The notes under the pieces: model-generated | What the model saw: the letters and a program-made list of their open reading frames with translations, nothing else | What the model was told of the DNA's origin: nothing | Database searches by the model: none | Shown here: one piece after another, positions 2,118-64,000 of the stretch | How the letters are laid out: every line of letters begins with the position of its first letter | Position numbering within the stretch: position 1 is the stretch's first letter | DNA from: Mustelus asterias | Lineage: Eukaryota | DNA length: 64,000 nt | Reading direction: 5' to 3' | Assembly: GCF_964213995.1 (NCBI RefSeq) | Contig: NW_027590128.1 | Location: 124,001-188,000 of the forward strand | Position numbers and translations under genes: made by a program

Positions 2118-3071
2118 TCAGGCAGAGCATTTAAAGAGGCTCTCCTTGGAGTGAGTGGCTTTGTGTTTCAGCAAGCTGGATGAAGTAGTGAATCCCTTCC
2201 CACACACAGAGCAGGGGAATGGTCTTTCCACAGTGTGAACTCGCTGATGTTCCCACAGGTTGGATGGCCTTTTAAACCTCTTTGAGCAGTGAGAGCAGCT
2301 GAACGATCTCTCCTCAGTGTGAATGCGCTGGTGGGACACTAGTTCTCCAGAGCTTTTGAATCCGCTCCCACAGTCAGAGCATTTAAAAGGTCTCTCATTG
2401 GTGTGAGTGAGATTGTGTCTGCGCAGGTGGGATAACAGAGTGAATCCCTTCCCACACACAGAGCAGGTGAACGGTCTCTCCCCGGTGTGAACTCGCTGGT
2501 GTATCCGCAAGTTGTATAATGTTCTAAACCTCTTTGAGCAGTGAGAGCAGCTGAACGGTCTGTCCTCAGTGTGAATGCGCTGGTGGGACACCAGTTCCCC
2601 AGAGCTTTTGAATCCGCTCCCACAGTCAGAGCATTTAAAGGGTCTCTCATTGATATGAGTGACTCGGTGTGTCTTCAGGGTGAATGACTGAGTGAATCCC
2701 TTCCCACACTGAGAGCAGGTGAACGGTCTCTCCCCAGTGTGAACTCGCTGGTGAATCTGCAGGTTGGATGAAGTTCTAAATTTCTTTGTGCAGTGAGAGC
2801 AGCTGAATGGTCTCTCCTCAGTGTGAATGCGCTGGTGGGACATCAGATACTGAGAGCTTTTGAATCCACTCCCACAGTCAGAGCATTTAAATGGTCTCTC
2901 ATTGGTATGAGTGAGATTGTGTTTCTGCAGGCTGGATAACTGAGTGAATCCCTTCCCACACACACAGCAGGTGAATGGTCTCTCCCCAGTGTGACTGCGT
3001 TGATGAGTTTCCAGATCAGATGGGAACCTGAATCTCTTCCCACAGTCCCCACATTTCCACGGTTTCTCCAT
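2118..3071 (-). CDS. ZNF-1: C2H2 zinc-finger protein, 11 fingers, no effector domain seen
   Basis: [17 protein letters not shown]...; ATG at 3071 in CACCATGG context (the track starts at an upstream TTG); TGERP-type linkers. Confidence 0.9.
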
Positions 3072-4363
3072 GGTGCGGGTGTCCTTGTGACTCTCTAGGT
3101 TAAACAATCAGTTAAATCTCACACAGAACACAGGTACAGTCTCTCCCCGCTGTGAATGCTGCGATGTATTTTCAGGCTGTGTAACTGGTTAAAGCTCTTT
3201 CCACACTCAGTGCACTGGAACACTCTCACTCGGGTGTGTGTATCTCAGTGCATTTCTAGTCACAGTGATGTTTACAATCTTTTGAAGCCAAGAGGCCAAA
3301 CAAACATTTCTCCTGCTAGATTCAAAGGCCGATGATATTCAGGTCTCAAGAAATCGAGTCACTCTGTCAGATCTCGATGTGATGTTGGAGATTTCTGTCT
3401 GATTTCTCCTTGTCTAATATCCTGTAAGTCAATTTAGAAAAAAAACATCACAATTCAGAATATGATCGAAATTCAAATCGACATTTCTAGTTTCTATGGA
3501 GCATTCATTAAAGACACAGTCATGGAGCATTAAACTTGCCGAGCAGGGCCTCCCGTATCAGCACACAGGCAGCTGCTTTGTGAGACTGCCAGCAGTACAG
3601 ACAAGTCAGAGATAAGGGTGTCCTCAGAAGTGGGATTCATTGTGAAAGCTCAGGGACGGTTGATAAGATGCAGCAATTCTATGATTCTAATGAACATTCT
3701 TTCCTCTCCCATTCCCCAAAAGCTGTAAATCTCCATCCCACACACTCTCCCTCCATTCTCACTCTGCTGTATCTAATATTCACCCTCCCAATTCTCCTGA
3801 AGGTGCTGATTGAGGCTGATTGACAGATCCATGCTCACTGCTTCCTGTCCAGCACAGAAATCAGAACAAATAGGAGCTGCAGTCAGCATTCGACCCATCG
3901 AGTCTGCTCAACCATTCATTGAGATTATTGGTTGATCTACCTCTGCATTATTTTCCCCACACTGCCCCCATATCCATCGATATCTTCAATATCTAGAAAC
4001 CTATCAATCCCTCTCTTGAAAATTTTTGATGACTGAGGCTCTATAGTCCTCTGGGGTAGAGAATCCAAAACATCACCACATCCTTGAGTGAAGAAATCCT
4101 CATCTGAGCTTTCTCTCCATTTTCCAGCCTGTTCCCAATAATTATTGACTCCCTTGTCATTCAAAAACTGTCTAACTCATCCTTGAATATATTCAATCCC
4201 TCCACTGGTCCCTATGGAAGAGAAATCTAGATACTAACAATTCTCTGAGGGAAGAGATTGTTGGAAATATATAATATAGCTGCAGTCCAAAATTACACAG
4301 CCAGATATAATAAGTGTATTTTATTACAGAGCTATAAATAATATATCGAACCATATAACAACA

Positions 4364-4755
4364 GGGGAGCGGATAGCCTCGCGGTATTATCGCTAGACTA
4401 TTAATCCAGAAACTTAGCTGATGTTCTGGGGGACCCGGTTCGAATCCCACCATGGCAGATGGTGGAATTTGAATTTAAAAACAAAATCTAGAATTAAGAA
4501 TCTACTGATGACCATGAAATCATTGTCGATTGACCAGAAAAACCCATCTGGTTCATTAATGTGCTTTAGGGAAGGAAATCTGCCGTCCTTACCCAGTCTG
4601 GCCTACATGTGACTCCAGAGCCACAGCAATGTGGTTGACTCTCAACCAGCCTCTGAAATGGCCTAGCGAGCCATTCAGTTCAAGGGCAAATAGGGATGGG
4701 CAATAAATGTTGGCCCAGCCGGCAATGCCCGTGTCCCAAGGATGAATAAAAAACA
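4364..4755 (+). mobile_element. tRNA-derived SINE with Deu-like core and L2-type tail (SacSINE1/DeuSINE-like)
   Basis: B-box-like ggttcgaatccc, core gggaaggaaatctgccgtccttacc..ctggcctacatgtgactcc, tail gggatgggcaataaatg..gatgaataaaaaa. Family name from recollection, not a database search. Confidence 0.65.
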
Positions 4756-5437
4756 CCATCAGACACGTCTCTGTCCGATATTAGTTTACTGTCCCCTTTA
4801 ATATATTTCAGAAATTAGATGGGCACATGAAGGAAATAAAGTTGCAGGGGAAAGGGAATATAGAAAGGGAATGGGACTGACTGGATTCTTCTACAGAGAG
4901 TCGGCATGGATTCGAGTTACTGAATGGACTCCTTCTGCGCTGTAATGACTCGATGAGTGGAAATATATAACATAGTTTCAGTGCTACATTACAAAATGAG
5001 AAATAATAATAAATGTACTTTGTTACAGAACCATAAATAATATATCAAATCTACAATGTAACAACACTAAGCATATCTCTGTCCTATATTAATTTATTGT
5101 TCTCTTAAATGTCAGCCATCTCCTGGGGAAACCAGCCCTTGAATTGTGAACATTCGGAAAGGGACCATCCTTTTAGCCAGACAAATCAATGTGTCAAGCT
5201 GAGGGAGCAAAGGATGTCAATGTCTTTAAGTCAGAGAGAGGGGGACCTGAGCCAACCTTTCCAGAGTCTGCAGCCTCCCTGGATTCACTTCCTTTCCCTT
5301 CAGTTGCTGCAAGTCCCCAATTTCCCCCAGAATGAGAAAAGAAATGGAAAGGGGGATAAAAGAATGTGTTTTACTCACAGATGTGGGCGACAGAAGGAAG
5401 TTTGAGTCTGTCTGTACTCAATATTCATTCAGAGAGA

Positions 5438-7022
5438 CCTCTTTTTAGGTCAAACCAAACCAAGTAAACAAACTCAGATTAAATCAGGACAAAGTAAAAG
5501 GGGCAGCTCCCCAAAAAGGAGGGGGAACAGCCCGAACAGAAATCAAAATACAAAGGAAACTTAAAAACATCAAATTAAAATGTGATTATTAGGGTCAATA
5601 ATGCACCCCAACCCCTGCGGTGCCCAGCGGGCGCGGAAGGCGTCAACCTCGCCCGTGGACACCACATGCTCCCTCTCCAGGGACACCTGGCCGCGAACGT
5701 AGCCGCGGTAGAGGGGAAGACAGTCAGGATGGACGGCCCCCTCGATCGCCCGCAGCCTGGACCGGTAAATGGCGCGTTTCGCCAGGCCCAGGAGCAGGTT
5801 CACGAGGAGGTCGCCATCCCGACCCTCCCCTCTCCGCACCGGGTGTCCGTAGATCAGGAGCGTGGGACTGAAGTGCAGACAAAACATCAACAAAAGGTTC
5901 TTTAGGAAAACATAAAGGGAGTGCAGCCTAAGACACTCAACATAGACATGGTCCACGGACTCCACAAGGCCGCAGAAAGGGCAGTCTTCGGAGCCCGTGA
6001 ACCAGTGAATCCTACGGTTGTGCGGAACTGCTGCATGCATCACCCTCCACCCCAGGTCCCCGACGTAATTGGGGGAGATCCCTCCGTAGAGGGACCTCCA
6101 CTGAAGACCTCCACTGCCCGGCAGCAACAAGGCCCGCCAAGATGTATCCGGGCGACAGGCGAGGAGGCAGTAGTGGAGGGTATGCAGCAGCAGCCCGCAC
6201 AGGAAACGCCTCCGCGCGCTAGAAAAAGGCACGGATGACATTTCCGCGAGGCGGCTCAGGCTGTGGGGCACCTCACCCAGGGGAGGGGACTGAGGCTTTG
6301 GGCCAATGCGGAATTCCGCCCGAACAGGGGAACGCTCGGGCGGGATTCCACCGCAAGCATGTGCCGCCTCAAGACCGCGTGCACTTTTGGGGCCGAGCAT
6401 GACCGTCCTAAGGTCTTGGATGGCTTTGGCTTTGGACACCCCCGCGCGCTCAGCACGTCCCCGATTCTGGTCACCCCGGCGTCCACAGCCCTCCTCTCCA
6501 CCAGCCACCTGAAGTTATACGGCTGGAGGAGCGGATTCCTGAGCAGCGGCGCTCGCACGAGAGCCGCTACTCCTGACGGGAGGGAGCTGCGTCGCGAGTC
6601 GACCGTGTTCCAGACAGTGAGGAGGTCCTGGTAAAAGACGGGCAACTCCTGCAGGGTGGTGGAAGCACGCCCCAGTTCGATATGCAGGAGCTGCACGTCA
6701 TAATTGAGGCCGTGCCACTGGCGGAAGAAATACGTCGCCATGGCTCACCACTGTGGAGGGGGCTCAACGTAAAGGTACCTCTGCAGGGCCTGGAGGCGGA
6801 AGGTCGCTATCTGAGTGCGGAGGCACACCAGACCTTGTCCGCCCTCCTCAAGCGGGAGATGCAGAACCGCAGCAGGGACCCAGTGCAGTCGATTGTCCCA
6901 GAAGAACCGCAGGAGGGTTCTCTGGATATTGGCTACAAAGCCAGGGGGAGGGGTCAAAGGGACCAGCCGGTACCACAGCATGGAGGCGAACACCTGGTTT
7001 ATGATGAGAACTCGCGCCCGTG
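5438..7022 (-). mobile_element. Tx1-clade non-LTR retrotransposon, 5'-truncated ORF2 C-terminus plus 3' UTR
   Basis: RARVLIINQVFASMLWYRL, HLPLEEGGQGLVCL and the zinc knuckle CPFCGLVESVDHVYVEC across frameshifted ORFs; GC-rich; 3' end cctaaaaagagg is shared with the copy at 40740-41402. Confidence 0.85.
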
Positions 7023-14444: not shown

Positions 14445-15591
14445 TCAGACCTGGATATGATTAACAGCATCAATAAGTGTAGAATCCAAACCTTGCAGTC
14501 GTTTGTGAACTCGCCGGTGTGTTAGCAGGTGGGATGACTGAATAAATCCCTTTCCACAGACATTACAGGTGAATGGCCTCTCCCCAGTGTGAACTCGCTG
14601 GTGTTTCAGAAGATAAGATAAATGAGAAAATCCCTTCCCACAGACAGAGCAGGTAAATGGCCTCTCCCCACTGTGAACTCTCTGATGTGTCAGCAGGTTG
14701 GATGACTGACTGAATCCCTTCCCACACATGGAGCAGGTGAACGGCCTCTCCCCAGTGTGAACTCGCTGGTGATTCAATAGGTTGGATGAACGAGTGAATC
14801 CCTTCCCACACACGGAGCAAGTGAATGGCCTCTCCTCACTGTGAACCTGCTGGTGTGTCAGAAGGTTGTATGAACGGGTGAATCTCTTCCCACATTCAGA
14901 GCAGGTGAACGGTCGATCCCCTGTATGGAGCTGCTGGTGTATCAGAAGGTTGGATGAATTAATGAATCCCTTCCCACAGTCTGAGCAGGTGAAGGGCCTC
15001 TCCCCAGTGTGAATTCTCTGGTGGTTCAATAGGGCAGGTGGACGGCTGAATCCCTTCCCACACACACAGCAGGTGAATGGCCTCTCCCCAGTGTGAGTAT
15101 ATTGGTGCGTCAGCAGATCCTTTTTGTTTTTAAAGCTCTTCGCACAGTGGGAACAATTAAAAAGTTTGTTATCAGAGTGAACAAGTTGATGTGTCTGCAG
15201 GTGGGATGACTGAATGAATCCTTTCCCACACAGAGCAGGTGAATGGTCTCTCCCCAGTGTGAATACGTTGGTGCGTCAGCAGATCTTTTTTGCATTTAAA
15301 ACTCTTCTCACAGTCAGAACATGTAAACATTCTCTCATCTGTGTGAACAAGTTGGTGTGTCACAATGTGGGATGAGCGAGTGAATCCCTTCCCACACACA
15401 GGGCAGGTGAACGGCCTCTCCCCAGTGTGAACCCGTCGGTGAGTCAGAAGGTTGTATGAATGGGTGAATCCCTTCCCACAAACAGAGCAGGTGAACGGTC
15501 TCTCCCCAGTGTGACTGCGCCGATGAACTTCCAGTTGTGATGGGAAACCGAATCCTTTCCCGCACTCCACACATTTCCACGGTTTCTCCAT
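14445..15591 (-). pseudogene. ZNF-2: 13-finger array with one 2-bp frameshift in finger 5 (pseudogene, truncated allele or assembly error)
   Basis: [10 protein letters not shown]..; cccacacagag at ~15225-15235 lacks one CA unit of the usual cccacacacagag; downstream frame is open through 14445. Confidence 0.85.
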
Positions 15592-16159
15592 GGTGCCCTT
15601 GTGTTTCTCCAGGTTGGATGATCAGTTCAAGCCACATCCACACACACAACATACACGTAGTTTCACCCTGCTGTGAACTGTGATGTTTTTTCAGGCTGTG
15701 TAACTGGTTAAAGCTCTTTCCACATTCAGTTCACTGGAACACTCTCACTCGGGTGTGTGTTTGTCTCGATGCTTTTCCGGTCATACTGATGTTTAATTTA
15801 TTTGCCCACAGGCAGAACAGACAAATATTTCTCTTTCTATATTCAAAGACCGATGATATTCAGCTCCGAAGGAACTGAATGACTTTGTCAGATGTGATGT
15901 CCGGTTTGAGTTTTCTGTCTGCCAATCTTTCACTTCCAATATCCTGTAAAAACAGTTTAGAAAAGTCATCACTGTCAGAACACGATACAAACTCTGAACA
16001 GACAATTCTAGTTTCTCTGGAACATTTTTTCCTTTCTTGTTCCCCCAAATCAGTAAATCCCCATCCCACCCACACACTCTCCCTCCTCCCTGGGCTGAAA
16101 TCCAAACCCATCTCACCATTTCTTTCCTCCACTCCCAGTTTTCTCCCTCCCTCTCCTCT

Positions 16160-16805
16160 ATCTGGATTCAGTTCTCCAGCTCCTGTCTGCAGACTGACAA
16201 TAAAACCAATGGGTCTTACTGGGGGTGTTGGGGCCTCCAGCGGGTGTTTGTGAATCCTCCCCGCCCACCTCCCAGGGTTTCCTTCCTTCCCAGAGATCAG
16301 AGTCCTCATTGATTTGAGGCCAAAGTGTAACCTCTTATTTATTGTCCCCCTCCCCCATCCTCTGATGTGAACCATCCTCCAGTGGCTGAGCCAGGATGGG
16401 GCCGTTAACCTGGGCCTGTTCCCGGGAGGGAGGGAGGGAGGGAGAAGCCCCGCAGCTGCAAACCAGGGAGCTGACAATGATTCTGAAGGGTTTGCGGATC
16501 CACAAAGTGTTTCCAAATCCTCCCAGCCACCGCCTAACGCTGACTCCGCTTCTCCGGGACAAACAAGCGCCAAGGACAGCAATGACACTGCGCATGCTCC
16601 ACATCACAATGCCCGGGGACTGATTGACGGCGGCTCCGGACCGATAGGAAGAGGGGGCGGGGCTGGGGGACCGAACGGGAGCGGCTGGTCCTCCAACCAA
16701 TCGGAGTGAATGAGGGGCGGGACTGGAGGACCGAATGGGAGCGGCTGGTCCTCCAACCAATCGGAATGAATGAGGGGCGGGACCTGGAGCATGCGCAGTG
16801 CGGGT
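16160..16805 (-). promoter_or_regulatory. Promoter/first-exon cassette B, copy 1 (ZNF-2)
   Basis: Two NRF1-like GCGCATGC sites (~16590, ~16790), duplicated 60-bp CCAAT plus GGGGCGGG unit; near-identical copies at 50750-51350 and 61515-62080. Confidence 0.7.
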
Positions 16806-16807
16806 GA

Positions 16808-16893
16808 ACCAGATAAACCTGTTGGACTTTAACCTGGTGTTGTTTGACTTGTTGCTGTGTTTACCCCAGTCCAACGCCGGCATCTCCACATCA
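16808..16893 (+). mobile_element. PLE family 1 3'-terminal fragment (tail)
   Basis: ataaacctgttggactttaacctggtg..ccccagtccaacgccggcatctccacatca flanked by tgcgggt repeats; same insertion at 62084-62169. Confidence 0.85.
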
Positions 16894-17334
16894 CTGCGGG
16901 TAGGGTAACGAACTTTGCAGACGACACAAAGATAAGTGGAAAAGTGAATCGTGTGGAGGACGGAGAAGATCTGCAGAGAGATTTGGACAGGCTGAGTGAG
17001 TGGGCGAGGATATGGCAAATGGAGTACAACGTTGAGAAATGCGAGGTTATACACTTTGGAGGAAATAATAACAAATGGGATTACTATCTCAATGGAAACA
17101 AATTAAAACATGCTACCGTGCAAAGGGACCTGGGGGTCCTTGTGCATGAGACGCAAAAGCCCAGTCTGCAGGTACAACAGGTGATCAAGAAGGCAAATGG
17201 GATGTTGGCCTATATTGCGAAGGGGATAGAATATAAATGATGTGGAGATGCCGGCGTTGGACTGGGGTAAACACAGTAAGAAGTTTAACAACACCAGGTT
17301 AAAGTCCAACAGGTTTATTTGGTAGCAAAAGCCA

Positions 17335-19419: not shown

Positions 19420-19830
19420 TCTGAAGCTCATTGGACAACTTCCGCATTGTGACGTCACAATAGTGTCCTGCCTGAATCAGCCAATAGGAATCACTCTGCT
19501 TCGCGGTGACGTCTCCGGGTTCCAGTTCTCAGGCCCGGGCGCGCGGACCCAGGAGCCCCGCCCCCACCCATTGTTCCCCTCCCCCTACACCTCCTTGAAC
19601 CAAGGTTTCCAGGCAACCGGCTGACGGCTCCAGCAAGAGCGAGAAGCCGCTCAGTGAGCTCTCCCTCCCCCCGGCCCAGGACGACACATGTGCGAGGGAG
19701 AGGGGAAGCTGCGCATGTGCGGGGGAGAACCCACCCTCTGATCTTCATGCTGAGGTGTTGACCAATGGGAAGAGTTGGAGGACCGGAAGGACTCTGGTCT
19801 TCCAGCCAATCAGAGTGTGGGCTTTGTGTG
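19420..19830. promoter_or_regulatory. Probable bidirectional CpG promoter C
   Basis: 16-bp palindrome ATTGTGACGTCACAAT (19446-19461), three CCAAT boxes, GCGCATGTGC, CCGGAAG; flanked by inverted copies of a first-exon-like module. Confidence 0.65.
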
Positions 19831-20039
19831 AATGAAGATTGATCTTCAGACAGACTCAAACTTCCTCCTGTCTCAAACATCTGTGAGTAAAACACTTTCT
19901 CTTCAACCCCCTTTCCATTTCTTTTCTCATTCTGGGGGAAATTGGGGACTTGCAGCAACTGAAGAGAAAGGAAGTGAATCCAGTGAGGGTGCAGACTCTG
20001 GAAAGGTTGGTCCAGGTTTCTCGCTCTCTCGAACCAGAA

Positions 20040-21427: not shown

Positions 21428-21904
21428 GGGAGAGAGTGTGTGGGATGGAGATTTACAGCTTTTGGGGAATGAGAGAGGAAAGAATGTTCCATAGAAATTG
21501 TTCTGAATTTCTATCCTGTACTGACACTGATGACTTTTGGAAACTCATTTTCAGGATATTGAAAGAGGAATCACAGGCCGAAATCTCAAACGTCATGTCT
21601 CGGCGTGACAGAATCGTGTTCCTTGGGACCTCAATATCATCGGACTTTGAATCCAGAAGGAGAAATGATTGTCCAGTCTGTCGATTTGAAAAGATTTGAA
21701 ATGTCAGTGTGAGTGAAAAAGCATCAACACACTGCCACACTTGAGTGAGAGTGTTCCAATGCACTGACTAAAGAGCTTCAACCAGTTACACAGTCTGAAT
21801 AAATATCACACCATTCACAGCGGTAGAGACTGTAATCTTGTCCTGTGTGTGGACGAAGTTTCAACTGATTGTCCACCCAAGAGTGAGGCAAGGAAACCTG
21901 CACC

Positions 21905-22579
21905 ATGGAGAAACCATGGAAATGTGGGGACTGTGGGAAGGGATACAGAGCCCCATGTCTGCTGGAAGCTCATCGGCGCAGCCACACTGGGGAGAGGCTG
22001 TTCATCTGCCCTGAGTGTGAGAAGGGATTTAATCAGTTCTCCAGCTTACGGACACACCAACGAGTTCACACTGGGGAGAGACCATTCACCTGCTCTCAAT
22101 GTGGGAAGGGATTCATTCAGTCATCCCACCTGCGGACACACCAGCGAGTTCACACTGGGGAGAGGCCATTCACCTGCTCTCAGTGTGGGAAGGGATTCAC
22201 TCAGTTATCCAGCCTGCAGACACACCAGCGAGTTCACACTGGGGAGAGGCCATTCACCTGCTCTCAGTGTGGGAAGGGATTCACTCAGTTATCCAGCCTG
22301 CAGACACACCAGCGAGTTCACACTGGGGAGAGGCCGTTCACCTGCTCTCAGTGTGGGAAGGGATTCACTCGGTTACCCGACCTGCGGACACACCAGCGAG
22401 TTCACACAGGGGAGAAACCATTCACCTGCTCTCAGTGTGGGAAGGGCTTCACTCGGTCATCCACCCTGCGGACACATCAACCAGTCCACACTGGGGAGAG
22501 GCCATTCACCTGCTCTCAGTGTGGGAAGGGTTTCAGCGTTTCATCCCGGCTGCTGAGACACCAGCGAGTTCACGAGTGA
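21905..22579 (+). CDS. ZNF-3: 8-finger C2H2 protein with a highly homogenised array
   Basis: 224 aa = 8x28; CACCATGG start; candidate acceptor tttcag|GATATT at 21554. Confidence 0.92.
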
Positions 22580-38158: not shown

Positions 38159-38464
38159 ATATGATATAAGGTGCTTGACAAGGTAGATGCTGAGAGGATG
38201 TTTCCTCTGGTGTGGAAATCAAGTAAAAATAAAGGATCTCAAATTTAAGATGAAGAGAGATCTTTTCTCTCAGCGGGTTGTTGATCTTTGGAACTCTGTC
38301 TTCACCAGTGAGTATTGGAGGCAGGTCATTGAATATATTCAAAGCTGAGGTTTTGATCCACAAGAAAGCCAAGGGTATGGACGGGGTGGGGGTAGCAAAG
38401 TAGACATGATCTTATTGAATGATGCAGCAGGCTCGATGGGCCCAATGACTGGCTCCTGTTCTTG

Positions 38465-39404: not shown

Positions 39405-39615
39405 TAAGAACAAAGAAAATTACAGTACAGGAACAGGCCCTTTGGCCCTCCAAGCCTGCACCGACCATGCTGCCCGATTTAAGTAAAACCCCCTACCCTT
39501 CTGGGAACCATATCACTCTATTCCCAAAGTATTCATGTACTTGTCAAGACGCCCCTTAAAAGTCACTACCGTACCTGCTTCCACTACCTCCCCCGAGTTC
39601 CAGGCACCCACCACT
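39405..39615 (-). mobile_element. CR1 3' end abutting a truncated ZNF exon
   Basis: taagaacaaagaaaattacagtacaggaacagg tail on the reverse strand. Confidence 0.8.
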
Positions 39616-39897
39616 CCCCGCTGTGAATGCTGCGATGTATTTTCAGGCTGTGTAACTGGTTAAAGCTCTTTCCACACTCAGTGCACTGGAACACTCTCAC
39701 TCGGGTGTGTGTCTCGGTGCTTTTCCAGTCACACTGAAATTTAAAATCTCCTGAAGCAGACTGAACAGAGAAACATTTCCATTCTGGATTCAAAGGTCGA
39801 TAATATTCAGGTCCCGACGAATTGAGGACTCTGTCAGATATTGATGTGACGTTTGGTTTGAGATTTCTGTCTGTAAATCCTCACCTTCTAATATCCT
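39616..39897 (-). pseudogene. ZNF-5 relic: leader of the finger exon only, array missing
   Basis: [31 protein letters not shown] nearly identical to 3145-3240, then runs directly into CR1. Confidence 0.8.
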
Positions 39898-40619: not shown

Positions 40620-41720
40620 CCTAAAAGGATGACGGCTGCGCATGCGCCTTCTTGCATATTGCCCCCAATAAAGATGGCGGCCGTGAGCGCGGCCCGAACA
40701 TGAGGAGCTGCGGTACCGCTCGGTACAAACTGGGTCCGTTGGAGGTCCCTCTACGGAGGGATCTCCCCCAATTACGTCGGGGACCTGGGGTGGAGGGTGA
40801 TGCATGCAGCAGTTCCGCACAACCGTAGGATTCACTGGTTCACGGGCTCCGAAGACTGCCCTTTCTGCGGCCTTGTGGAGTCCATGGACTATGTCTATGT
40901 TGAGTGTCTTAGGCTGCACTCCCTTTATGTTTTCCTAAAGAGCCTTTTGTTGATGTTTTGTCTGCATTTCAGTCCCACGCTCCTGATCTACGGACACCTG
41001 GTGCGGAGAGGGGAGGGGAGGGATGGCGACCTCCTTGTGAACCTGCTCCTGGGCCTGGCGAAACGCGCCATTTACTGGTCCAGGCTGCGGGCGATCGAGG
41101 GGGCCGTCCATCCTGACTGTCTTCCCCTCTACCGCAGCTACGTTCACGGCCAGGTGTCCCTGGAGAGGGAGCATGCGGTGTCCACGGGCGAGGTTGACGC
41201 TTTCCGCGCCCGCTGGGCACCGCAGGGGTTGGGGTGCATTATTGACCCTAATAATCACATTTTAATTTGATGTTTTTAAGTTTCCTTTGTACTTTGATTT
41301 CTGTTCGGGCTGTTCCCCCTCCTTTTTGGGGAGCTGCCCCTTTTACTTTGTCCTGAATTAATCTGAGTTTGTTTACTTGGTTTGGTTTGACCTAAAAAGA
41401 GGACAAACTGGGTCCGTGAAGCTCTTTACCGAGGTTCACGGCTGACACAACCTGCTTACGCAGCGTTTCCGTCCACCCGCGAGATCCCTCGCCCCCTCCG
41501 TACCGTCAATCACCGCTAACCTATCTCCGAGCCGAAAAAACAGCCCCGTCTCCGTCGCCATTACCCACACTGCGCATGCCCCAGTCAGAGCGGGCCCCGC
41601 CCCTCATTCACTGTGATTGGTTGGAGGACCAGCCTCTCCCACTCGGACCTCCAACCGCGCCCCTTGTCTCCCCATTGGTCCACGCTGCCGTCAATCAGCC
41701 GGGCATTGTGACGGTGACTT
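40620..41720 (-). promoter_or_regulatory. Promoter cassette A, copy 2, split by a Tx1 insertion
   Basis: Colinear with 9140-9570; GCGCATGCGC, AAGATGGCGGC, GC box and ATTGG boxes. Confidence 0.6.
40740..41402 (+). mobile_element. Tx1-clade 3' fragment with 15-bp TSD
   Basis: TSD acaaactgggtccgt at 40725-40739 and 41403-41417; near-identical to the RC of 5438-6100; zinc knuckle CPFCG; no poly(A). Confidence 0.93.
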
Positions 41721-45140: not shown

Positions 45141-46430
45141 TCACACATGAAGTCGTCTATGTTTCAGCAGGCTGTAATACTGATTAAATCCCTTCCCACA
45201 CATGGAGCAGTTGAAAGGTTTTGCCCCAGTGTGAACTCGCTGGTGTCTCTGCAGACGGGATGGATCAGTGAATCCCTTCCCACACAGGGAGCAGTTGAAA
45301 GGTTTTGCCCCAGTGTGAACTCGCTGGTGTCTCTGCAGGCGGGATGGATCAGTGAATCCCTTCCCACACAGGGAGCAGGTGAACGGTTCTGTCGCAGTGT
45401 GAGCTCGCTGGTGTTTCAGCATATAGGATGAATCAGTGAATCCCTTCCCACACACAGAGCAGGTGAACGGCTTCTCCCCGGTGTGAATGCGTTGGTGTCT
45501 CAGCAGGCCAGACGACTGAGCGAATCCCTTTCCACACACAGAGCACAGGAACGGCCTCTCCCCGGTGTGAATGCGTTTGTGTTTCAGCAGATCATCACTT
45601 CTTTTAAAGGTCTTATTGCATTCTGAGCATTGAAAAGGTCTCTTGTCAGAGTGAATGTGTTGGTGTTGATTGCAGTAGGAAAACTGAGCAAATCTTTTGC
45701 CGCAAATGGAGCAGGAGAACGGCTTCTCCCCTGTGTGAATGCGGCGGTGTCTCCGGAGGCTGGATGACTCCGTGAAAGCCTTCCCACACACGGAGCAGCT
45801 GAATGCCTTCTCCCCGGTGTGAATCGGCCGGTGACTTAGCAGATGCTGGAAACAAGTAAATGCTTTCCCACACACAGGGCAAACGTATGGCCTCTCCCCA
45901 GTGTGAGTGCCCTGGTGTCTCAGCAGACTAATCCTTCTTTTGAAGGTCTTCTCACATTTAAAGCATTTAAAATGTCTCTTCTGAAAATGAATCTGTTGGT
46001 GAACGGTGCAGTGGGAGGACTGAGTGAATCTCTTCCCACACTGGGAGCAGCTGAATGGCCTGTCCTTGGTGTGAACTTGTTGGTGCTCAGTGAGATGCAC
46101 TGAGTCGCTGAACGACTCTCCACAGTGAGAGCAGCTGAACGGTCTCTCGTGTGTGTGAAGGAGCTGGTGCTCTGCAAGGCGGGAGGACTGGCTGAACCTC
46201 TTCCCGCAGTGGGAGCAGCTGAACGGTCTCTCGTCAGTGTGAAGGAGCTGGTGTTGGGCCTGTTCCTCAGAGGTTTCAATGCTTTGCCCAGAGTCAGAGC
46301 TTTGAAGAGGCTTCTGAATAATGTGATCGAGTTGGTGAGCCAGCAGGTTGGACGAACACATGAATTTCTTCCCACACACGGAGCAGGTGAATGAACTCTC
46401 ACTGTTGCGAGCTCGCTGTCGTGTCAGCAT
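45141..46430 (-). CDS. ZNF-6: C2H2 protein, 14 intact fingers plus degenerate N-terminal fingers
   Basis: Open frame 45141-46496; first in-frame ATG at 46430 (true start uncertain); candidate acceptor ttttgcag at ~46614-46621. Confidence 0.88.
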   Translation of the reverse strand: MLTRQRARNSESSFTCSVCGKKFMCSSNLLAHQLDHIIQKPLQSSDSGQSIETSEEQAQHQLLHTDERPFSCSHCGKRFSQSSRLAEHQLLHTHERPFSCSHCGESFSDSVHLTEHQQVHTKDRPFSCSQCGKRFTQSSHCTVHQQIHFQKRHFKCFKCEKTFKRRISLLRHQGTHTGERPYVCPVCGKAFTCFQHLLSHRPIHTGEKAFSCSVCGKAFTESSSLRRHRRIHTGEKPFSCSICGKRFAQFSYCNQHQHIHSDKRPFQCSECNKTFKRSDDLLKHKRIHTGERPFLCSVCGKGFAQSSGLLRHQRIHTGEKPFTCSVCGKGFTDSSYMLKHQRAHTATEPFTCSLCGKGFTDPSRLQRHQRVHTGAKPFNCSLCGKGFTDPSRLQRHQRVHTGAKPFNCSMCGKGFNQYYSLLKHRRLHV

Positions 46431-46639
46431 GTTTTCCAGCTGTATCAATCCCTTCCCACAGGAGGAGCAAGGAAACAGATTCTCACCAGTTTCCAACTGA
46501 GATGGTCAATTAAATCCCTTCAGATGTACAAATCTTCAAATCCCAATGAATTGATTGACTCTGTCTGACGTGAGATTTGTTTGTCCAGACTGCAAATCCT
46601 CCTCTTCTATTTCCTGCAAAATAAGTTTACAAAGAATTA

Positions 46640-50399: not shown

Positions 50400-51350
50400 G
50401 AGCAGAAACACAAAGACCCGCCCACTCACGGTTGCGTCACCAAGACACCAACGCGTGCGCTCTGCTCCCCGCTGAATCAAGATGGCGGCCGTTAACCTGA
50501 GCTTCGTCTCGGGACAAAGACCTGAAGCTGCAAACACGGGACCTACGGGCTCATATTCGATGTTTGAGGCCTTCACCAGATATTTAGAAACCTTCTACGT
50601 CCATCCGCCGCTTCCATTGCTCCCTCTATGTTTCTGCATCCTTACCGGCTGCTGATGAGACAGAGGAACTTCTCTCCAGTTGCTGTCACCCACACTGCGA
50701 ACGCCGTTGCTTACTGCGCATGTGCATCTCTCCCATGCAAAGAATAGGGAACTCTTCCTATTGGTCCGGGCCCTCATTCACTCTGATTGGCTGGAGGACC
50801 AGCCGCTCCCGCTCGGTCCTCCAGTCCCGCCCCTCATTCACTCCGGTTGGTTGGGGGACCAGCCCTGCCCCCTCTTCCTATTGGTCCGGAGCTGCCGTCA
50901 ATCAATCCCCGGGCATTGTGATGTGGAGCATGCGCAGTGTCATTGCTGTCCTTGGCGCTTGTTTGTCCCGGAGAAGCGGAGTCAGCGTTAGGCGGTGGCT
51001 GGGAGGATTTGGAAACACTTTGTGGATCCGCAAACCCTTCAGAATCATTGTCAGCTCCCTGGTTTGCAGCTGCGGGGCTTCTCCCTCCCGGGAACAGGCC
51101 CAGGTTAACGGCCCCATCCTGGCTCAGCCACTGGAGGATGGTTCACATCAGAGGATGGGGGAGGGGGACAATAAATAAGAGGTTACACTTTGGCCTCAAA
51201 TCAATGAGGACTCTGATCTCTGGGAAGGAAGGAAACCCTGGGAGGTGGGCGGGGAGGATTCACAAACACCCGCTGGAGGCACCAACACCCCCAATAAGAG
51301 CCATTGGTTTTATTGTCAGATGGCAGACAGCAGCTGGAGAACTGAATCCA
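50400..51350. promoter_or_regulatory. Probable bidirectional promoter: YY1/NRF1 half facing ZNF-6 plus cassette B copy 2 on the plus strand
   Basis: CAAGATGGCGGC (~50478), TGCGCATGTGCA (~50716), ATTGG boxes; 50750-51350 is the RC of cassette B. Confidence 0.65.
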
Positions 51351-51680
51351 TGATATGGAGATGCCGGCGTTGACTGGGGTAAAGACAGTAAGAAGTTTAA
51401 CAACACCAGGTTAAAGTCCAACAGGTTTATTTGGTCGCAAATGCCACTAGCTTTTGGAGCGCTGCCCCTTCGTCAGGTGGAGTGGAGAAATGCTCACAAA
51501 CAGGGCATACAGAGACACAAACTCAATTTACAGAATAATGATTGGAATGCAGTCTTTACAGATAATCAAGTCTTAAAGGTACAAACAATGTGAATGGAGG
51601 GAGCATTAAGCACACGTTAAAGAGATGTGTATTGTCTCCAGACAGGACAGCCAGTGAGATTCTGCAAGTCCAGACAAGCT
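51351..51680 (-). mobile_element. PLE family 1 pLTR; hammerhead motif at 51444-51480 with GAAA>AAAA
   Basis: RC CCAC CUGACGA A GGGGC agc GCUCC AAAA GC UA GUGG. Confidence 0.87.
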
Positions 51681-52322: not shown

Positions 52323-53360
52323 TCACTCGTGAACACGCTGGTGTTTCAGCAGGTGAGGTGACTGAGTGAATCCCTTCCCACACACGGAGCAGGTGAATGG
52401 CCTGTCCCCAGTGTGAATTCGCTGGTGCTTTACCAGGTTGGATGATTGACTGAATCTCTTACCACAATCAGAGCAGGTGAATGGTCTCTCCCCGGTGTGA
52501 ACTCGCTGGTGTCTCTGCAGGGTGGATGAATCAATAAATCCCTTCCCACAACTGGAGCAAGTGAATGGCCTCTCCCCAGTGTGAACTCGCTGGTGTTTCA
52601 ACAAGATGAATGACTGACTGAAGCCCTTCCCACACTCAGAGCAGGTGAACGGCCTCTCTCCGGTGTGACCTCGCTGGTGTTTTAGGAGGTTGAAGGATTG
52701 AGTGAATCTCTTCCCACACTCGGAGCAGATAAATGGCCTCTCCCCATTATGAATTCTCTGGTGTTTCAGCAGGTCGGATGAATCAGTGAATCCCTTTCCA
52801 CACTCAGAGCAGGTGAACGGCCTCTCTCCAGTGTGAACTCGCTGGTGTTTCAGCAGGATAGAAGAGGTAGGGAATCCCTTCCCACAATCAGAGCATCTGA
52901 ATGGTCTCTCTCTAGTGTGAACTCTCTGGTGTGTCAGCAGGATTGATGAGGTAGCGAATCCCTTCCCACACTCATGACAGTTGAATGGCCTCTCCCCAGT
53001 GTGAACCCACTGGTGTTTCAGCAGATGGGATGAACAAATGAATCCCATCCCACACTTGGAGCAGGTGAACGGTCTCTCCCCAGTGTGAACTCGCCGGTGT
53101 GTCAGCAAGATGGATGAGGTAGTGAATCCCTTCCCACACTCAGAGCAGGTGAATGGTCTCTCTCCAGTGTGATTGTGTCGATGAGTTTTCAGTTCAGATG
53201 GAAATCTGAATCTCTTCCCACAGTCTCCACATTTCCATTGTTTCTCCTTGTTGTGACTGCATTTATGTTTCAACAGGCCAGATGATCGGCTAAATGTTCG
53301 TCCACACACAGAACACATGTACAGTTTCTCTCCAGCGTTAACCGTGCTTTTCCCTTCCAT
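52323..53360 (-). CDS. ZNF-7: 12-finger C2H2 protein
   Basis: [22 protein letters not shown]; ATG at 53360; candidate acceptor ttttacag at ~53470-53478. Confidence 0.92.
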
Positions 53361-54029
53361 GTTCAAAACCCAATGATATTCAGATTACAATAATTTAGGC
53401 GATAGCGTCAGATCCTGATGCGACGTTTGGTTTGAGTTTTCTCCCTTCCACTCCTGCACTTCTAATATCCTGTAAAAAAAAAGTCCAAAGTTAAAAATTG
53501 AAGCAAATATTTCTCTTGGTTTGAGTTTACTGTGTGTAAATCCTCCCCTTCTCACCCTCTGGAAAAGGAGACTCCAAAATCCATCAATGTCAGTCCAGGA
53601 TAGAAATTCACAACATTTTGTCACAGGGACAGTGATAACCGTGCCTGTGTCCTGCCCCCGAGAAAGATGACAGCCATTAACCCAAGTCTATCAGTGTTTC
53701 TCCTTCACTATTTCATGTGATGTGGGTTTTATTGCCAAGACCAGCATTTATTTCCTGCCCCTGAGGAGGGCAGTTAGAGACTGAATCGCATGTTGACAAG
53801 TCTATGGAGAGACAGCAGATTCCCATGAATAAACAGGGTGGGTTTTTAAAATTGTTCACAGCTGTAATGGTTACTCCAGTGAAATTATATTCCAGATTTT
53901 CCAGCGTTTTGTGAATTCTATTCAAACCACCCCAGCTCCATGATGGGACTTGAACCTATCCCCAGAACATGAGGCTGTGTCACTGATATTACCACCACCT
54001 CCCCAATTGTAGAGCTGCTGCAATTACCC

Positions 54030-54295
54030 CCCGGGTCGGTGCAAACTCGGGCCCGGGGGGTTCCTTACTCTGGGTTTTGAGGCCTCCTCCACTGGCTGTT
54101 TCTGAAGCCTCTGCACTCACTTCCCCGCCTCCCTGCAGCTCCAGCACCCACACTGCGCATGGGCCAGTCCGAATCCGCACAGCGCATGCTCCACTCAGAA
54201 TCAGGTACTGCGCCTGCGCAAGCGGCTGCTATTGTGACAATACGGCACATTCTCTCTCGCTGCGAATGCTGGGTAAGAGGACCGCCATAGGAAGG
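54030..54295 (-). promoter_or_regulatory. CpG promoter-like segment (candidate ZNF-7 promoter)
   Basis: TGCGCATG, GCGCATGC and TGCGCCTGCGCA NRF1-like sites, CCCCGCCTCC GC box. Confidence 0.55.
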
Positions 54296-59853: not shown

Positions 59854-60777
59854 TCACTTATGAACTTGCTGATGTCTCAGGAGCCATTGTGACTGAGTGA
59901 ATCCCTTCCCACACACAGAGCAGTTGAATGGCCTCTTAGTGTCAGTGCATTGGTGAGCCAGCAGGTTGAAAGACTTTGCAAATCCCTTCCCACACACGGA
60001 GCAAGTGAATGGCCTCTCCCCTGTGTGAACTCGCTGGTGAGCAGAGAGGTTGGATGGCCGATTGAATCCCTTCCCACACACGGAGCATGTGAATGGTCTT
60101 TCTGCAGTGTGAGTGCGTCGGTGAGCAGTGAGGTTGGATGACTGCCTGAAATTCTTTCCACAGTCAGTGCAGCTGAATGGCTTCTCTTCAGTGTGAATTT
60201 TCTGGTGTCTCAGCAGGGTGGGTAAAGCTGTGAATCCCTTTCCACACACAAAGCAAGTAAACGGTCTCTCCCCAGTGTGAATTCGCTGGTGTGCAACGAG
60301 GGAGGATGCCTGTCTGAAACTCCGTCCACAGTCAGTGCAGCTGAATGGCTTCTCCTCAATGTGAACTCGCTGGTGTGACAGTAAGTGGGATGACCCAGTG
60401 AATCCCTTCCCACAGTTGGAGCAGGTGAACGGCATCTCCCCAGTATGAACTCGCTGGTGTGACAGCAGGTGGAATGACTGAGTGAATCCCTTCCCACACA
60501 CGGAGCAGATGAATGGTCTCTCCCCGGTGTGAGTGCGTTGGTGCACAGTGAGTGCTGAAGAATGCCTGAACCTCTTCCCACAGGAGGTGCAGGTGAATGG
60601 CTTTTCCTCAGTGTGAATTCTCTGGTGAGACCAAAGGCCAGATGACTGAATGAATCCCTCCCCACAAACAGAACAGGTGAACGGTCTCTCACCAGTGTGA
60701 CTGCGCCGATGGTTTTCCAGCAGGGAAGGGTAACTGAATCCATTCCCACAGTCCCCACATTTCCACGGTTTCTCCAT
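59854..60777 (-). CDS. ZNF-8: C2H2 protein, 10 intact fingers plus 1 degenerate
   Basis: [13 protein letters not shown]; finger 10 lacks the second His (HQCTD). Confidence 0.92.
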   Translation of the reverse strand: MEKPWKCGDCGNGFSYPSLLENHRRSHTGERPFTCSVCGEGFIQSSGLWSHQRIHTEEKPFTCTSCGKRFRHSSALTVHQRTHTGERPFICSVCGKGFTQSFHLLSHQRVHTGEMPFTCSNCGKGFTGSSHLLSHQRVHIEEKPFSCTDCGRSFRQASSLVAHQRIHTGERPFTCFVCGKGFTALPTLLRHQKIHTEEKPFSCTDCGKNFRQSSNLTAHRRTHTAERPFTCSVCGKGFNRPSNLSAHQRVHTGERPFTCSVCGKGFAKSFNLLAHQCTDTKRPFNCSVCGKGFTQSQWLLRHQQVHK

Positions 60778-61335
60778 GATACTGGTGTCCTTATGTTTCT
60801 CCAGGTTAAACGATCAGTTGAAGCCTCATCCACACACAGAACACGTGTACAGTTTCTCCTTGCTGTGAATGGTGTGATGTTTTTTAAGGCTGTGTAACTG
60901 GATAAAGCTCTTTCCACAGTCAACTCACTGAAACACTCTCACTCGGGTGTGCGTGTATCTTGGTGCTTTTTCAGTCGCACTGATGTTTGAAATCTTCTCC
61001 TCCAGACAGAAGACAAACATTTCTCCTTCCACGTTCAAAGTCTGAGGATATTTAAGTCCAAGTGAATCGAGACTCTGTCTGATTTTGATGTGATGTTTCT
61101 TCACCTCACCTGTAAAAGGAGTTTACAAAATTAATCACTGTCAGTCCAGGATAGAAATTTTGAACAGGCAATTCTAATTCTCTGGAAAATTTCTTCCTCT
61201 CTTGTTCCCCAAATCAATAAATTCCTGTCCCACAAACTCTCCCTCCTCCCTGGGCTGAAATCCAAACCCACCTCACCATTTCTTTTCTCCACTCCCAGTT
61301 TGCTCCCTCCCTCTCCTCTGTCTGGGTTCAGTTCT

Positions 61336-61505
61336 GATGTGGAGATGCCGGCGTTGGACTGGGGTGAACACAGTAAGAGTTTTAACAACACCAGGTTAAA
61401 GGCCAACAGGTTTATTTGGTAGCAAACACCTAATGGTAGCGAATGGCGTTTGCTACCAAATAAACCTGTTGGACTTTAACCTGGTGTTGTTAAAACTCTT
61501 ACTGT
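61336..61505. mobile_element. PLE family 1 fold-back insertion, 63-bp arms and 20-bp spacer
   Basis: Arms 61365-61427 and 61448-61510; direct repeat gttcagttct at 61326-61335 and 61506-61515; empty site at ~16165. Confidence 0.9.
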
Positions 61506-61514
61506 GTTCAGTTC

Positions 61515-62081
61515 TCCAGCTGCTGTCTGCAGACTGACAATAAAACCAATGGGTCTTATTGGGGGTGTTGGGGCCTCCAGCGGGTGTTTGTGAATCCTCC
61601 CCGCCCACCTCCCAGGGTTTCCTTCCTTCCCAGAGATCAGAGTCCTCATTGATTTGAGGCCAAAGTGTAACCTCTTATTTATTGTCCCCCTCCCCCATCC
61701 TCTGATGTGAACCATCCTCCAGTGGCTGAGCCAGGATGGGGCCGTTAACCTGGGCCTGTTCCCGGGAGGGAGGGAGGGAGAAGCCCCGCAGCTGCAAACC
61801 AGGGAGCTGACAATGATTCTGAAGGGTTTGCGGATCCACAAAGTGTTTCCAAATCCTCCCAGCCACCGCCTAACGCTGACTCCGCTTCTCCGGGACAAAC
61901 AAGCGCCAAGGACAGCAATGACACTGCGCATGCTCCACATCACAATGCCCGGGGACTGATTGACGGCAGCTCCGGACCAATAGGAAGAAGAGGCGGGGCT
62001 GGAGGACCGAGCGGGAGCGGCTGGTCCTCCAACCAATCGGGGTGAATGAGGGGCGGGACCTGAAGCATGCGCAGTGCGGGT
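61515..62081 (-). promoter_or_regulatory. Promoter/first-exon cassette B, copy 3 (ZNF-8)
   Basis: Near-identical to 16175-16805 but with a single CCAAT/GC-box unit. Confidence 0.7.
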
Positions 62082-62083
62082 GA

Positions 62084-62169
62084 ACCAGATAAACCTGTTG
62101 GACTTTAACCTGGTGTTGTTTGACTTGTTGCTGTGTTTACCCCAGTCCAACGCCGGCATCTCCACATCA
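62084..62169 (+). mobile_element. PLE family 1 tail fragment (duplicated with 16808-16893)
   Basis: Flanked by gtgcgggt repeats. Confidence 0.85.
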
Positions 62170-62217
62170 GTGCGGGTAATGGCAGACGGCCGGTTTTAGT
62201 TTGGAAGCGAGATCAAT

Positions 62218-62745
62218 GAAGGGAAAGGAATGACTGGCAAATGGGAGGTTTTAAAAGTGTGATATCAAGAGTCCAGAGGCAGTATATTCCTGTTAAGATG
62301 CAGGGAAAGAATGGTAAATTTAGGGTTCTCTGGCAGACAAGGGACATTGAGGCTCTGGTCAGGTAAAAGAAGGAAGCAGACATTGGGTTTAGGCAATCGG
62401 GGACAAGTGAATCACTCTGACTATAAAAAGTGTAAGAAAATACTGAAGAGGGAAATCAGGAGGACAAAAAGAGGGTATGATATGGATCTGGCAGGTAAGA
62501 TTAAAGAAAATTCCAAGAGGTTCTGTAGCTATATTAAGAGTAAAAGGGTGGCTAGAGAGAGAATAGATCCCCTTAAAAATCAGTATGGCCATCTGTGTGT
62601 GGAGCCACAGGAGATGGGTGAGATTTTTAATGAATACTTCTCCTCTGTGTTTACTGCGGAGAGCACCATGGGTGCTAAAGAAATAAGGGAAACAAGTGGT
62701 GATGTCTTGGGCACACGCATGTTACTTGGGAGGAGGTATCTGCAG
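62218..62745 (+). mobile_element. CR1 fragment, duplicate of 20706-21230
   Basis: Colinear near-identity. Confidence 0.82.
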
Positions 62746-63423
62746 CCTTATAAAAGCAAATTACTGCGGATGCTGGAATCTGAAACCAAGAGAGAAAATG
62801 CTGGAAAATCTCAGCAGGTCTGGCAGCATCTGTAAGGAGAGAAAAGAGCTGATGTTTCTTGTCTCGATGACCCTTTGTCAAAGCTCTGAAACATCAGTTC
62901 TTTTCTCTCCATACAGATGCTGCCAGACCTGCTGAGAATGGGGAGAGAGTGTGTGGGATGGAGATTTACAGCTTCTGGGGAATGAGAGAGGAAAGAATGT
63001 TCCATAGAAATTGTCTGTTCTGAATTTCTATCCTGTACTGACACTGATGACTTTTGGAAACTCATTTTACAGGATATTGAAAGAGGAATCACAGGCTGAA
63101 ATCTCAAACGTCACGTCTCGATCTGACAGAGTCTTATTCCTTGGGACCTCAATATCATCGGACTTTGAATCCAGAAGGAGAAATGATTGTCCAGTCTGTC
63201 GATTTGAAAAGATTTGAAATGTCAGTGTGAGTGGAAAAGCATCAACACACTGCCACACTCGAGTGAGAGTGTTCCAATGCACTGACTAAAGAGCTTTAAC
63301 CAGTTACACAGTCTGAATAAATATCACACCATTCACAGCGGGTAGAGACTGTAATCTTGTTCTGTGTGTGGACGAAGTTTCAACTAATTGTCCACCCAAG
63401 AGAGAGGTAAGGACACCTGCACC

Positions 63424-64000
63424 ATGGAGAAACCGTGGAAATGTGCAGACTGTGGGAAGAGATACAGAGCCCCATCTCTGCTGGCAGCTCATCGGCGCAG
63501 CCACACTGGGGAGAGACCATTCACCTGCTCTCAGTGTGAGAAGGGATTCATTCAGTTATCCAGCCTGCGGACACACGAGCGAGTTCACACTGGGGAGAGG
63601 CCATTCACCTGCTCTGAATGTGGGAAGGGATTCATGCAGTCATCCCACCTGCAGACACACCAGCGAGTTCACACTGGGGTGAGGCCATTCACTTGCTCTC
63701 AGTGTGGGAAGGGATTCATTCAGTTATCTACCCTGCGGACACACGAGCGAGTTCACACTGGGGAGAGGCCATTCACCTGCTCTCAGTGTGGGGAGGGATT
63801 CACTTGTTCATCCAACCTGCGGACACACGAGCGAGTTCACACTGGGGAGAGGCCGTTCACCTGCTCTCAGTGTGGGGAGGGATTCACTTGTTTATCCACC
63901 CTGCGGACACACCAGCGAGTTCACACTGGGGAAAGGCCCTTCACCTGCTCTCAGTGTGGGAAGGGATTCACTCAGTTATCCAATTTGCGGGCTCACCAGC
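63424..64000 (+). CDS. ZNF-9: C2H2 protein, at least 6 fingers, runs off the window; paralog of ZNF-3
   Basis: CACCATGG at 63424; [32 protein letters not shown]..; open to the window end, hence absent from the ORF track. Confidence 0.88.

What the first reader, a model, noticed from the sequence alone, without database searches (positions are those of the whole stretch)
2118..64000. Cluster of apparently effector-less (KRAB-free) ZNF genes in a retrotransposon-dense shark locus
Seen: nine related ZNF loci in 64 kb. Each visible CDS is essentially all fingers and lies in one exon, with birth (duplication) and death (frameshift, truncation) side by side. Established: tetrapod KRAB-ZNF clusters and cyprinid FiNZ-ZNFs evolve this way against transposons. 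Inference: a chondrichthyan-specific ZNF repertoire that may act without a fused repressor domain, or with an unrecognised one on upstream exons.
Basis: partly seen in the sequence, partly recalled or inferred. Interest (0 to 1): 0.7.

Follow-up and report, generated by a model that had tools for sequence, protein, structure and literature searches.

The report
Shark finger-only zinc-finger gene family
This stretch holds nine copies (seven intact) of a shark zinc-finger gene family with thousands of members whose proteins consist only of DNA-reading fingers with no silencing domain attached, so if they police jumping genes, which is likely but untested, they would have to recruit their partners in some other way.

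Summary
Nine loci confirmed: seven intact ORFs, one frameshifted, one cut off before its start codon. They are not single-exon genes. All share a splice acceptor 109-351 nt before the ATG, but that leader is non-coding: 0 of 67 sampled genes and 0 of 128 close copies have an open frame from acceptor to fingers. The leader is a decayed spacer plus fossil fingers; translation starts just before a distinctive first finger. The family is huge (2,670 exact start-motif matches) and each of the five window genes searched has dozens of copies at 93-100% identity. Zinc-binding residues are under strong purifying selection; positive selection on DNA-contact residues was not shown. RNA-like contigs from four other organisms cover finger exons. 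DNA targets, repression and partners are untested. A side result: an L1/Tx1-like retrotransposon has inserted repeatedly at one nucleotide in this family's first exon (about 42 of 100 listed sites). Shark ZNF counts are already published; the scan noted both the family and the hotspot before on other DNA. Verdict: real, new variant of a known kind.

The parts
2118..3421 (-). Z1 finger exon: acceptor at 3421, ATG 3071, 317-aa ORF with 11 fingers in triplet modules; decayed fingers continue to about 1740
5378..5437 (-). Z1 first-exon remnant (promoter type A) with GTGAGT donor at 5378; 5' part interrupted by the LINE
   Evidence: splicing inferred
5438..7019 (-). 5'-truncated L1/Tx1-like LINE inserted in Z1 exon 1, 60 nt before the donor
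   Evidence: APE+RT of full-length relatives
14445..15943 (-). Z2 finger exon: acceptor 15943, ATG 15591, frameshift near 15240 after 4 fingers, 8 further fingers out of frame
16156..16902 (.). Promoter-like block type B (TGCGCATG, CCAAT and GC boxes), 96-97% identical to 61496-62178
   Evidence: motif names recalled
19700..19883 (+). Z3 promoter (type A) and short non-coding exon 1; donor at 19883
   Evidence: splicing inferred
21555..22579 (+). Z3 finger exon: acceptor 21555, ATG 21905, 224 aa, 8 fingers, intact
34073..35010 (-). Z4 finger exon: acceptor 35010, ATG 34663, 196 aa, 7 fingers, intact
38460..38880 (-). CpG-rich promoter-like block with candidate donor at 38766, possible Z4 first exon
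   Evidence: assignment inferred
39614..39895 (-). Z5 relic: acceptor plus fossil-finger leader only, cut by a LINE fragment before the ATG
40740..41402 (+). Second L1/Tx1-like copy (97.7% to the first), 15-bp target duplication, inside a ZNF promoter-like block
45141..46613 (-). Z6 finger exon: acceptor 46613, ATG 46430, 429 aa, 14 fingers, intact
50430..51355 (.). Two-sided promoter-like block; + side is an orphan type-B copy (91% to Z2's), - side faces Z6
52323..53469 (-). Z7 finger exon (MEGK type): acceptor 53469, in-frame TAA in leader, ATG 53360, 345 aa, 12 fingers
54120..54260 (-). Z7 promoter/candidate exon 1, donor-like GTGAGT at 54120 (altered or deleted in many copies)
59854..61109 (-). 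Z8 finger exon: acceptor 61109, ATG 60777, 307 aa, 10 fingers, intact
61496..62178 (.). Type-B promoter-like block between head-to-head Z8 and Z9, likely bidirectional
63073..64000 (+). Z9 finger exon: acceptor 63073, ATG 63424, 364 aa and 12 fingers when completed beyond the window

Best explanation
These are two-part genes of a family with thousands of copies whose ORFs encode zinc fingers only, and which likely act as a fast-renewed library of DNA readers for repeats and transposons, predicted to recruit silencing partners in trans rather than through a fused domain. Shown: a shared splice acceptor opens the finger exon; the next 110-350 nt are a decayed spacer and up to three fossil fingers full of stops and frameshifts; the ORF starts at an ATG six codons before a family-specific first finger (or 15 codons before it in the MEGK type) and usually ends within three codons of the last finger; copies multiply by segmental duplication and change specificity by gain, loss and shuffling of whole fingers; zinc-binding residues are under purifying selection. 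Inferred: splicing of a short non-coding first exon from a CpG-rich promoter; translation from that ATG; DNA binding; repeats as targets; recruitment through a finger surface, most plausibly the invariant non-contact face of finger 1, or simple steric blocking. Odds: effector-less architecture about 0.9; functional proteins about 0.8; transposon or repeat control as the main job about 0.5.
For: Frame closed from acceptor to fingers in 0 of 67 arrays open, phases 27/21/19; 34 of the 67 came from contiguous blocks not picked by motif; the 13 arrays without a detected acceptor have at most 51 open codons upstream; 0 of 128 close copies open. 215 indel events in the leader of 46 genes against 0 from ATG through finger 1 (genes were picked for having the ORF). 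49 of 55 MEKPW-type ORFs intact; purine at -3 in 52 of 53. 0 of 132 sense-strand upstream frames hit Pfam (132 of 180 frames sent, LINE-internal ones left out). No KRAB match in the genome; SCAN matches exist (146) but none listed on C71 or C96. 2,670 exact start-motif matches, control 0. Structural residues 6 changes in 603 sites against 138 in 994 synonymous, ratio 0.07, p 2e-21; nonsense ratio 0.31 (Z3, Z6, Z7, Z8 families, Z1 dropped because its arrays do not align). Z1 copies 96-99% alike in the leader carry 5-18 fingers in reshuffled order. Heterodontus and Chiloscyllium protein models also start MEKPWKC and carry only finger families. Finger 1 signature in 0 of 115 non-shark proteins held. 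ZNF and retroelement counts correlate across animals (PMC10547256, passages).
Against: No binding, repression or partner data. Contact residues are not shown to be positively selected: ratio 0.45 to synonymous (0.65 to leader rate) in young families; in the Z1 family 2.1 times the pooled synonymous rate but 1.1 within the same codons, p 0.7; cross-family pairs 0.30 against 0.31. Non-contact, non-structural residues change at the leader's rate. Finger 1 varies at -1, +3, +6 like a normal DNA reader, so it is not a dedicated handle. Expression rests on assembled contigs guessed to be RNA from other organisms; intron and promoter were also thinly covered in two runs, and no exon-1 to exon-2 joint was listed. 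The KRAB search had no working control and would miss split exons. 45 of 46 leaders hold upstream ATGs and 12 of 53 an overlapping out-of-frame uORF, so protein output may be low.
Confidence: 0.5

Rival explanations
1. The proteins are real DNA binders but serve chromatin organisation, satellite or promoter binding (as with insect ZAD-ZNFs), not transposon silencing.
For: Contact residues are conserved among young copies; no proof of positive selection; PMC10547256 (passages) notes ZNF families that do not target transposons and calls the primary function open.
Against: Extreme copy number and finger shuffling fit a moving target; chondrichthyan genomes are high in both ZNF and retroelement ORFs.
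Confidence: 0.25
2. Most copies are passengers of an ampliconic region that duplicates 40-100 kb blocks; selection only removes misfolded products, and a few master genes do the work.
For: Each of five window genes has 30-40 listed copies at 93-100% on C71 and unplaced contigs; a 51-kb tandem repeat lies beside the window; non-structural residues drift at the leader's rate; many uORFs.
Against: Strong loss of Cys/His/Phe/Leu changes and fewer nonsense changes even among 1-4% diverged copies; 103 of 128 copies keep a full-length-like ORF (loose criterion).
Confidence: 0.17
3. A short unrecognised effector peptide is spliced in frame through a second acceptor just before the ATG, or in a subset not sampled.
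For: The leader reads as an acidic linker in phase 1 with the fossil fingers, as if an upstream coding exon once existed; one Heterodontus model has this linker open; 7 of 55 genes have a YAG with 4+ T in the short open stretch.
Against: Typical open stretch is 12 codons; no conserved alternative acceptor; candidate first exons are 50-100 nt, with the ATG lost or indels present in some; the only two database proteins with the linker are chimeric-looking models.
Confidence: 0.08

Closest known systems
Tetrapod/sarcopterygian KRAB-ZNF (KZFP) clusters
   Same: Clustered tandem C2H2 genes, all fingers in one terminal exon behind a spacer, birth and death, finger gain and loss, transposon-rich setting.
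   Different: No KRAB exon in frame; leader is non-coding; start codon sits at the first finger; far more copies; TRIM28 route not available or untested.
Cyprinid FiNZ-ZNFs (Wells et al. 2023, PMC10547256)
   Same: Lineage-specific expansion concentrated on one chromosome region (here C71 and unplaced contigs, plus C12, C16, C23, C75 clusters).
   Different: FiNZ is a 28-aa domain on an upstream coding exon; here no upstream exon can join in frame through the shared acceptor. Positive selection and de-repression were shown for FiNZ-ZNFs, not here.
Chondrichthyan ZNF ORF sets counted by Wells et al. (475-3,586 per genome, supplement rows)
   Same: This family is very likely the bulk of those counts.
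   Different: The paper's main text does not mention sharks or their gene structure.
Target-preferring Tx1-clade LINEs (Tx1L, Keno, Tx1-Mar; PMC4494074 passages)
   Same: APE-type LINE recurrently inserted at a multicopy target, with target duplications and serial insertions.
   Different: Target is the first exon of a protein-coding family; only 73 of 1,633 ends (4.5%) sit there, below the 20% rule that paper uses for 'target specific'.

Membership tests
Tandem C2H2 (Kruppel-type) ZNF genes | Arrays of C2H2 fingers with TGE(K/R)P linkers | tested here: met
KRAB-ZNF | KRAB domain encoded upstream and in frame with the fingers | tested here: not met
   frame closed 67 of 67 and 128 of 128; no PF01352 match in genome (no working control); no Pfam hit in 132 upstream frames
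KRAB-ZNF | Fingers in one terminal exon, clustered genes, birth and death | tested here: met
KRAB-ZNF | TRIM28 recruitment and H3K9me3 on targets | not testable with these tools
   presence of TRIM28 in this genome was not searched
FiNZ-ZNF | FiNZ domain on an upstream coding exon | tested here: not met
   no FiNZ profile was available; excluded indirectly by the closed frame
SCAN- or BTB-ZNF | N-terminal SCAN or BTB domain | tested here: not met
   BTB not searched genome-wide
Transposon-controlling ZNF system | Positive selection on DNA-contact residues | tested here: inconclusive
Transposon-controlling ZNF system | Binding to and repression of transposons | not testable with these tools
   no motif prediction or ChIP run
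Expressed gene | Spliced transcript | tested here: inconclusive
   contigs of four RNA-guessed runs cover ORF and leader; one leaves the reference at the acceptor with 55 other letters
Target-specific Tx1-clade LINE | APE endonuclease plus RT of L1/Tx1 type | tested here: met
   the name Tx1 rather than L1 is recalled and from earlier notes, no clade tree built
Target-specific Tx1-clade LINE | More than 20% of copies at one target | tested here: not met
   73 of 1,633 exact ends; genome-wide flank is only VCAA

The most novel reading that the evidence does not exclude
Sharks and rays run a third vertebrate zinc-finger defence system, beside KRAB and FiNZ: thousands of finger-only proteins that shed their N-terminus early in elasmobranch history and dock a co-repressor through the conserved face of finger 1, while an L1/Tx1-like retrotransposon fights back by inserting at one nucleotide in their first exon, borrowing their promoter and silencing them.
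Probability: 0.2. Interest if true: 0.85.

Novelty: new variant of a known kind. Interest (0 to 1): 0.55.

Why it matters
How ZNF expansions work outside KRAB-bearing lineages is an open question (PMC10547256 says so for FiNZ). Sharks have some of the largest ZNF repertoires counted, and this analysis shows the genes have no room for a fused effector, which reduces the question to a few direct tests: what finger 1 binds, what the arrays bind, and whether tethering represses. The insertion hotspot in exon 1 gives a natural set of knock-out alleles and a possible case of a transposon using its host's ZNF genes as landing pads.

Tried and rejected
Single-exon genes or retrocopies: rejected, shared acceptor and upstream donors. 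Stop-codon read-through of the fossil fingers: rejected, frameshifts of all phases. A conserved internal coding exon: none found by strand-biased comparison of 6.4 kb upstream of 67 genes or intron alignment. Pyrimidine count alone did not separate real from alternative acceptors; YAG plus T count did better. Positive selection: my first pairing was biased by choosing pairs on non-contact identity and its first-finger class was filtered on Pro; redone. Z1 family dropped from pooled N/S counts because arrays misalign. No RNA holder on record was listed; only one stretch (Z7) was laid, so splicing of the other genes is open. Spacer profile found two proteins only, both chimeric-looking; first-finger profile search was crowded out by long tetrapod ZNFs. 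No structure or complex prediction was run: no candidate partner. Binding-motif prediction was not run. Paper searches found no description of this gene structure or of the exon-1 hotspot; most subscription papers are outside the library, and supplement files 3-5 of PMC10547256 were not searched and may hold shark annotations.
Full report
Observation. A six-frame scan finds nine finger loci: Z1 to Z9. Seven have intact ORFs, Z2 is frameshifted after four fingers, and Z5 is a relic cut before its start codon. Pfam lists only zinc-finger-type families for the ORFs (best 25 shown per protein). The window is G000:C96:124001-188000 of a 3.68-Gb assembly. The closest proteins come from sharks and a sawfish.

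Gene anatomy. All nine loci share a 3' splice acceptor 109-351 nt before the ATG. I sampled about 860 kb (264 kb around the window, 200 kb of C71, and 40 stretches picked by the start motif) and found 80 arrays, 67 with this acceptor. In none of the 67 is the frame open from acceptor to finger ORF, and the phase is random, 27/21/19. The other 13 arrays belong to the same two types and have at most 51 open codons upstream. Among 128 close copies of five window genes, none is open either. The leader is a short spacer followed by up to three fossil fingers; 46 aligned leaders hold 215 indel events, 153 not multiples of three, against none from the ATG through finger 1 (these genes were chosen for having the ORF). 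The ATG lies six codons before the first Cys in most genes (MEKPWKC) or 15 codons before it (MEGK type, Z7), with a purine at -3 in 52 of 53, and 35 of 53 ORFs stop within three residues of the last finger. Upstream lie CpG-rich blocks with TGCGCATG, CCAAT and GC boxes (factor names NRF1, NF-Y, Sp1 are recalled) of several types; type A ends in a 50-100 nt exon with a conserved GTGAGT donor. None of 132 sense-strand upstream frames, of 180 listed, hits Pfam. A genome search gave no KRAB match (control uninformative) while SCAN gave 146 dispersed matches, none listed on C71 or C96. A Pristiophorus protein model ends at the same position as the leader's first conserved stop, and Heterodontus models start MEKPWKC or MEG/MEA, so the layout is likely old within elasmobranchs.

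Scale and turnover. The exact start motif occurs 2,670 times (control 0), clustered on C12, C16, C23, C71 and beyond (100 places listed). Each of five window genes searched has 30-40 listed copies at 93-100% identity on C71 and unplaced contigs (only 40 candidates scored each). Copies gain and lose whole fingers. Z1 copies, 96-99% alike in the leader, carry 5-18 fingers in reshuffled triplets (17 of 30 loci parsed). Z2 and Z8 share a 97% identical promoter block but only 74% identical exons, which points to recombination between promoter blocks.

Selection. Pooling Z3, Z6, Z7 and Z8 families (Z1 dropped for misalignment): structural residues 6 changes in 603 sites, contact residues 23 in 371, other residues 172 in 1,783, nonsense 7 in 163, synonymous 138 in 994, leader 93 in 974. 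Zinc-binding is strongly preserved (ratio 0.07), contact residues moderately (0.45; 0.65 against the leader, p 0.06), other residues drift at the leader's rate. In the Z1 family contact changes run at 2.1 times the pooled synonymous rate but 1.1 times that of the same codons (p 0.7). So the proteins are maintained, but an arms-race signature is not shown. Finger 1 has a fixed face (Pro +1 in 44 of 46, Ser +2 in 43, Glu +5 in 41, Arg-Arg after the first His in about 40; Trp is part of the selection motif) yet varies at -1, +3 and +6; the signature is in 0 of 115 non-shark proteins held.

Expression. No run on record as RNA was listed. Contigs of four RNA-guessed runs from four other organisms cover Z7's ORF deeply (summed paralogs) and its leader; one contig leaves the reference at the acceptor with 55 other letters, as a spliced transcript would, but no joint to the candidate exon 1 was listed and two runs also cover intron and promoter thinly. 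This is a hint only.

Retrotransposon hotspot. Both L1/Tx1-like copies in the window lie in ZNF first-exon or promoter blocks. Genome-wide there are 1,633 exact 3' ends; 73 abut the same nucleotide, 9 nt before the type-A donor, all listed places in ZNF clusters or unplaced contigs. Of 388 donor sites matching a restricted pattern, 42 of the first 100 listed carry the element's tail (counted by eye), against an expected occupancy of 1.5e-5 per VCAA site, the element's general flank. Different 5' lengths, target duplications, serial insertions and a tree mixing donor-site with dispersed copies (8 changes; 0 of 200 bootstrap trees give one origin, but only 2 of 29 branches are well supported) argue for repeated insertion. 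Three long copies begin with a tRNA-Val-like head (ARAGORN of 3) followed by a copy of the target. I saw this before asking; the scan had noted it on other DNA of this genome.

Mechanism. Shown: finger-only ORFs, non-coding leader, massive duplication, purifying selection. Inferred: splicing, translation, DNA binding, repeat targets, recruitment in trans through a finger surface or steric blocking. I put transposon or repeat control at 0.5, other chromatin roles at 0.25, passenger amplification at 0.17 and a hidden effector at 0.08.

Literature. PMC10547256: passages, section 4 and supplement rows (chondrichthyan counts 475-3,586; files 3-5 not searched). PMC11603059, PMC8455134, PMC4494074, PMC10380595: passages; PMC8455134 notes KRAB-box families missing in cartilaginous fishes. 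PMC13709654: abstract. Seven searches showed no paper on this gene structure or hotspot. Earlier scan notes describe the same family in at least four genomes.

Verdict. Real and better defined than first read: an effector-less variant of the vertebrate poly-ZNF expansion, with function still open. Interest 0.55.

Noticed in passing
window 5438-7019 and 40740-41402; G000 C12, C23, C71, C75 clusters (L257-L306): L1/Tx1-like LINE inserts repeatedly 9 nt before the splice donor of ZNF type-A exon 1 (73 exact cases; about 42 of 100 listed sites); two other tail types sit at the same nucleotide.
   Followed up: yes
L291:2497-2569, L304:7847-7921: Long copies of that LINE start with a tRNA-Val-like head followed by a copy of their own target site including the donor.
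   Followed up: partly
window 16156-16902, 61496-62178, 50763-51355: Promoter block 91-97% identical in front of ZNF exons that are only 74% alike, and one orphan copy; elsewhere Z8-like genes neighbour Z3-like genes, suggesting partner swapping by recombination.
   Followed up: partly
window 16808 and 62084: A short repeat fragment (Penelope-like end, label recalled) sits directly beside the TGCGCATG motif in both type-B promoters.
   Followed up: no
G000:C96 about 197-263 kb (L031-L038): A three-gene block is repeated about 51 kb apart, nearly identical.
   Followed up: no
window 37500-37650, 47080-47260, 53558: Extra copies of the ZNF splice acceptor without fingers; 105 acceptor hits against 80 arrays in the sample.
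   Followed up: partly
window 28704-29246 and 21296-21424, 62809-62937: Long inverted repeats (558 nt at 85%; about 130 nt), possibly MITE-like elements.
   Followed up: no
window 17276-17525: A perfect 250-nt palindrome formed by two head-to-head repeat ends.
   Followed up: no
ZNF exon leaders, e.g. window 21555-21904: Nearly every leader holds upstream ATGs (median 3); 12 of 53 have an out-of-frame uORF overlapping the start, a possible translational brake.
   Followed up: partly
G000 C71 (20.4 Mb) and contigs C85-C2336: A whole small chromosome-scale contig plus many unplaced contigs appear dominated by this family.
   Followed up: partly
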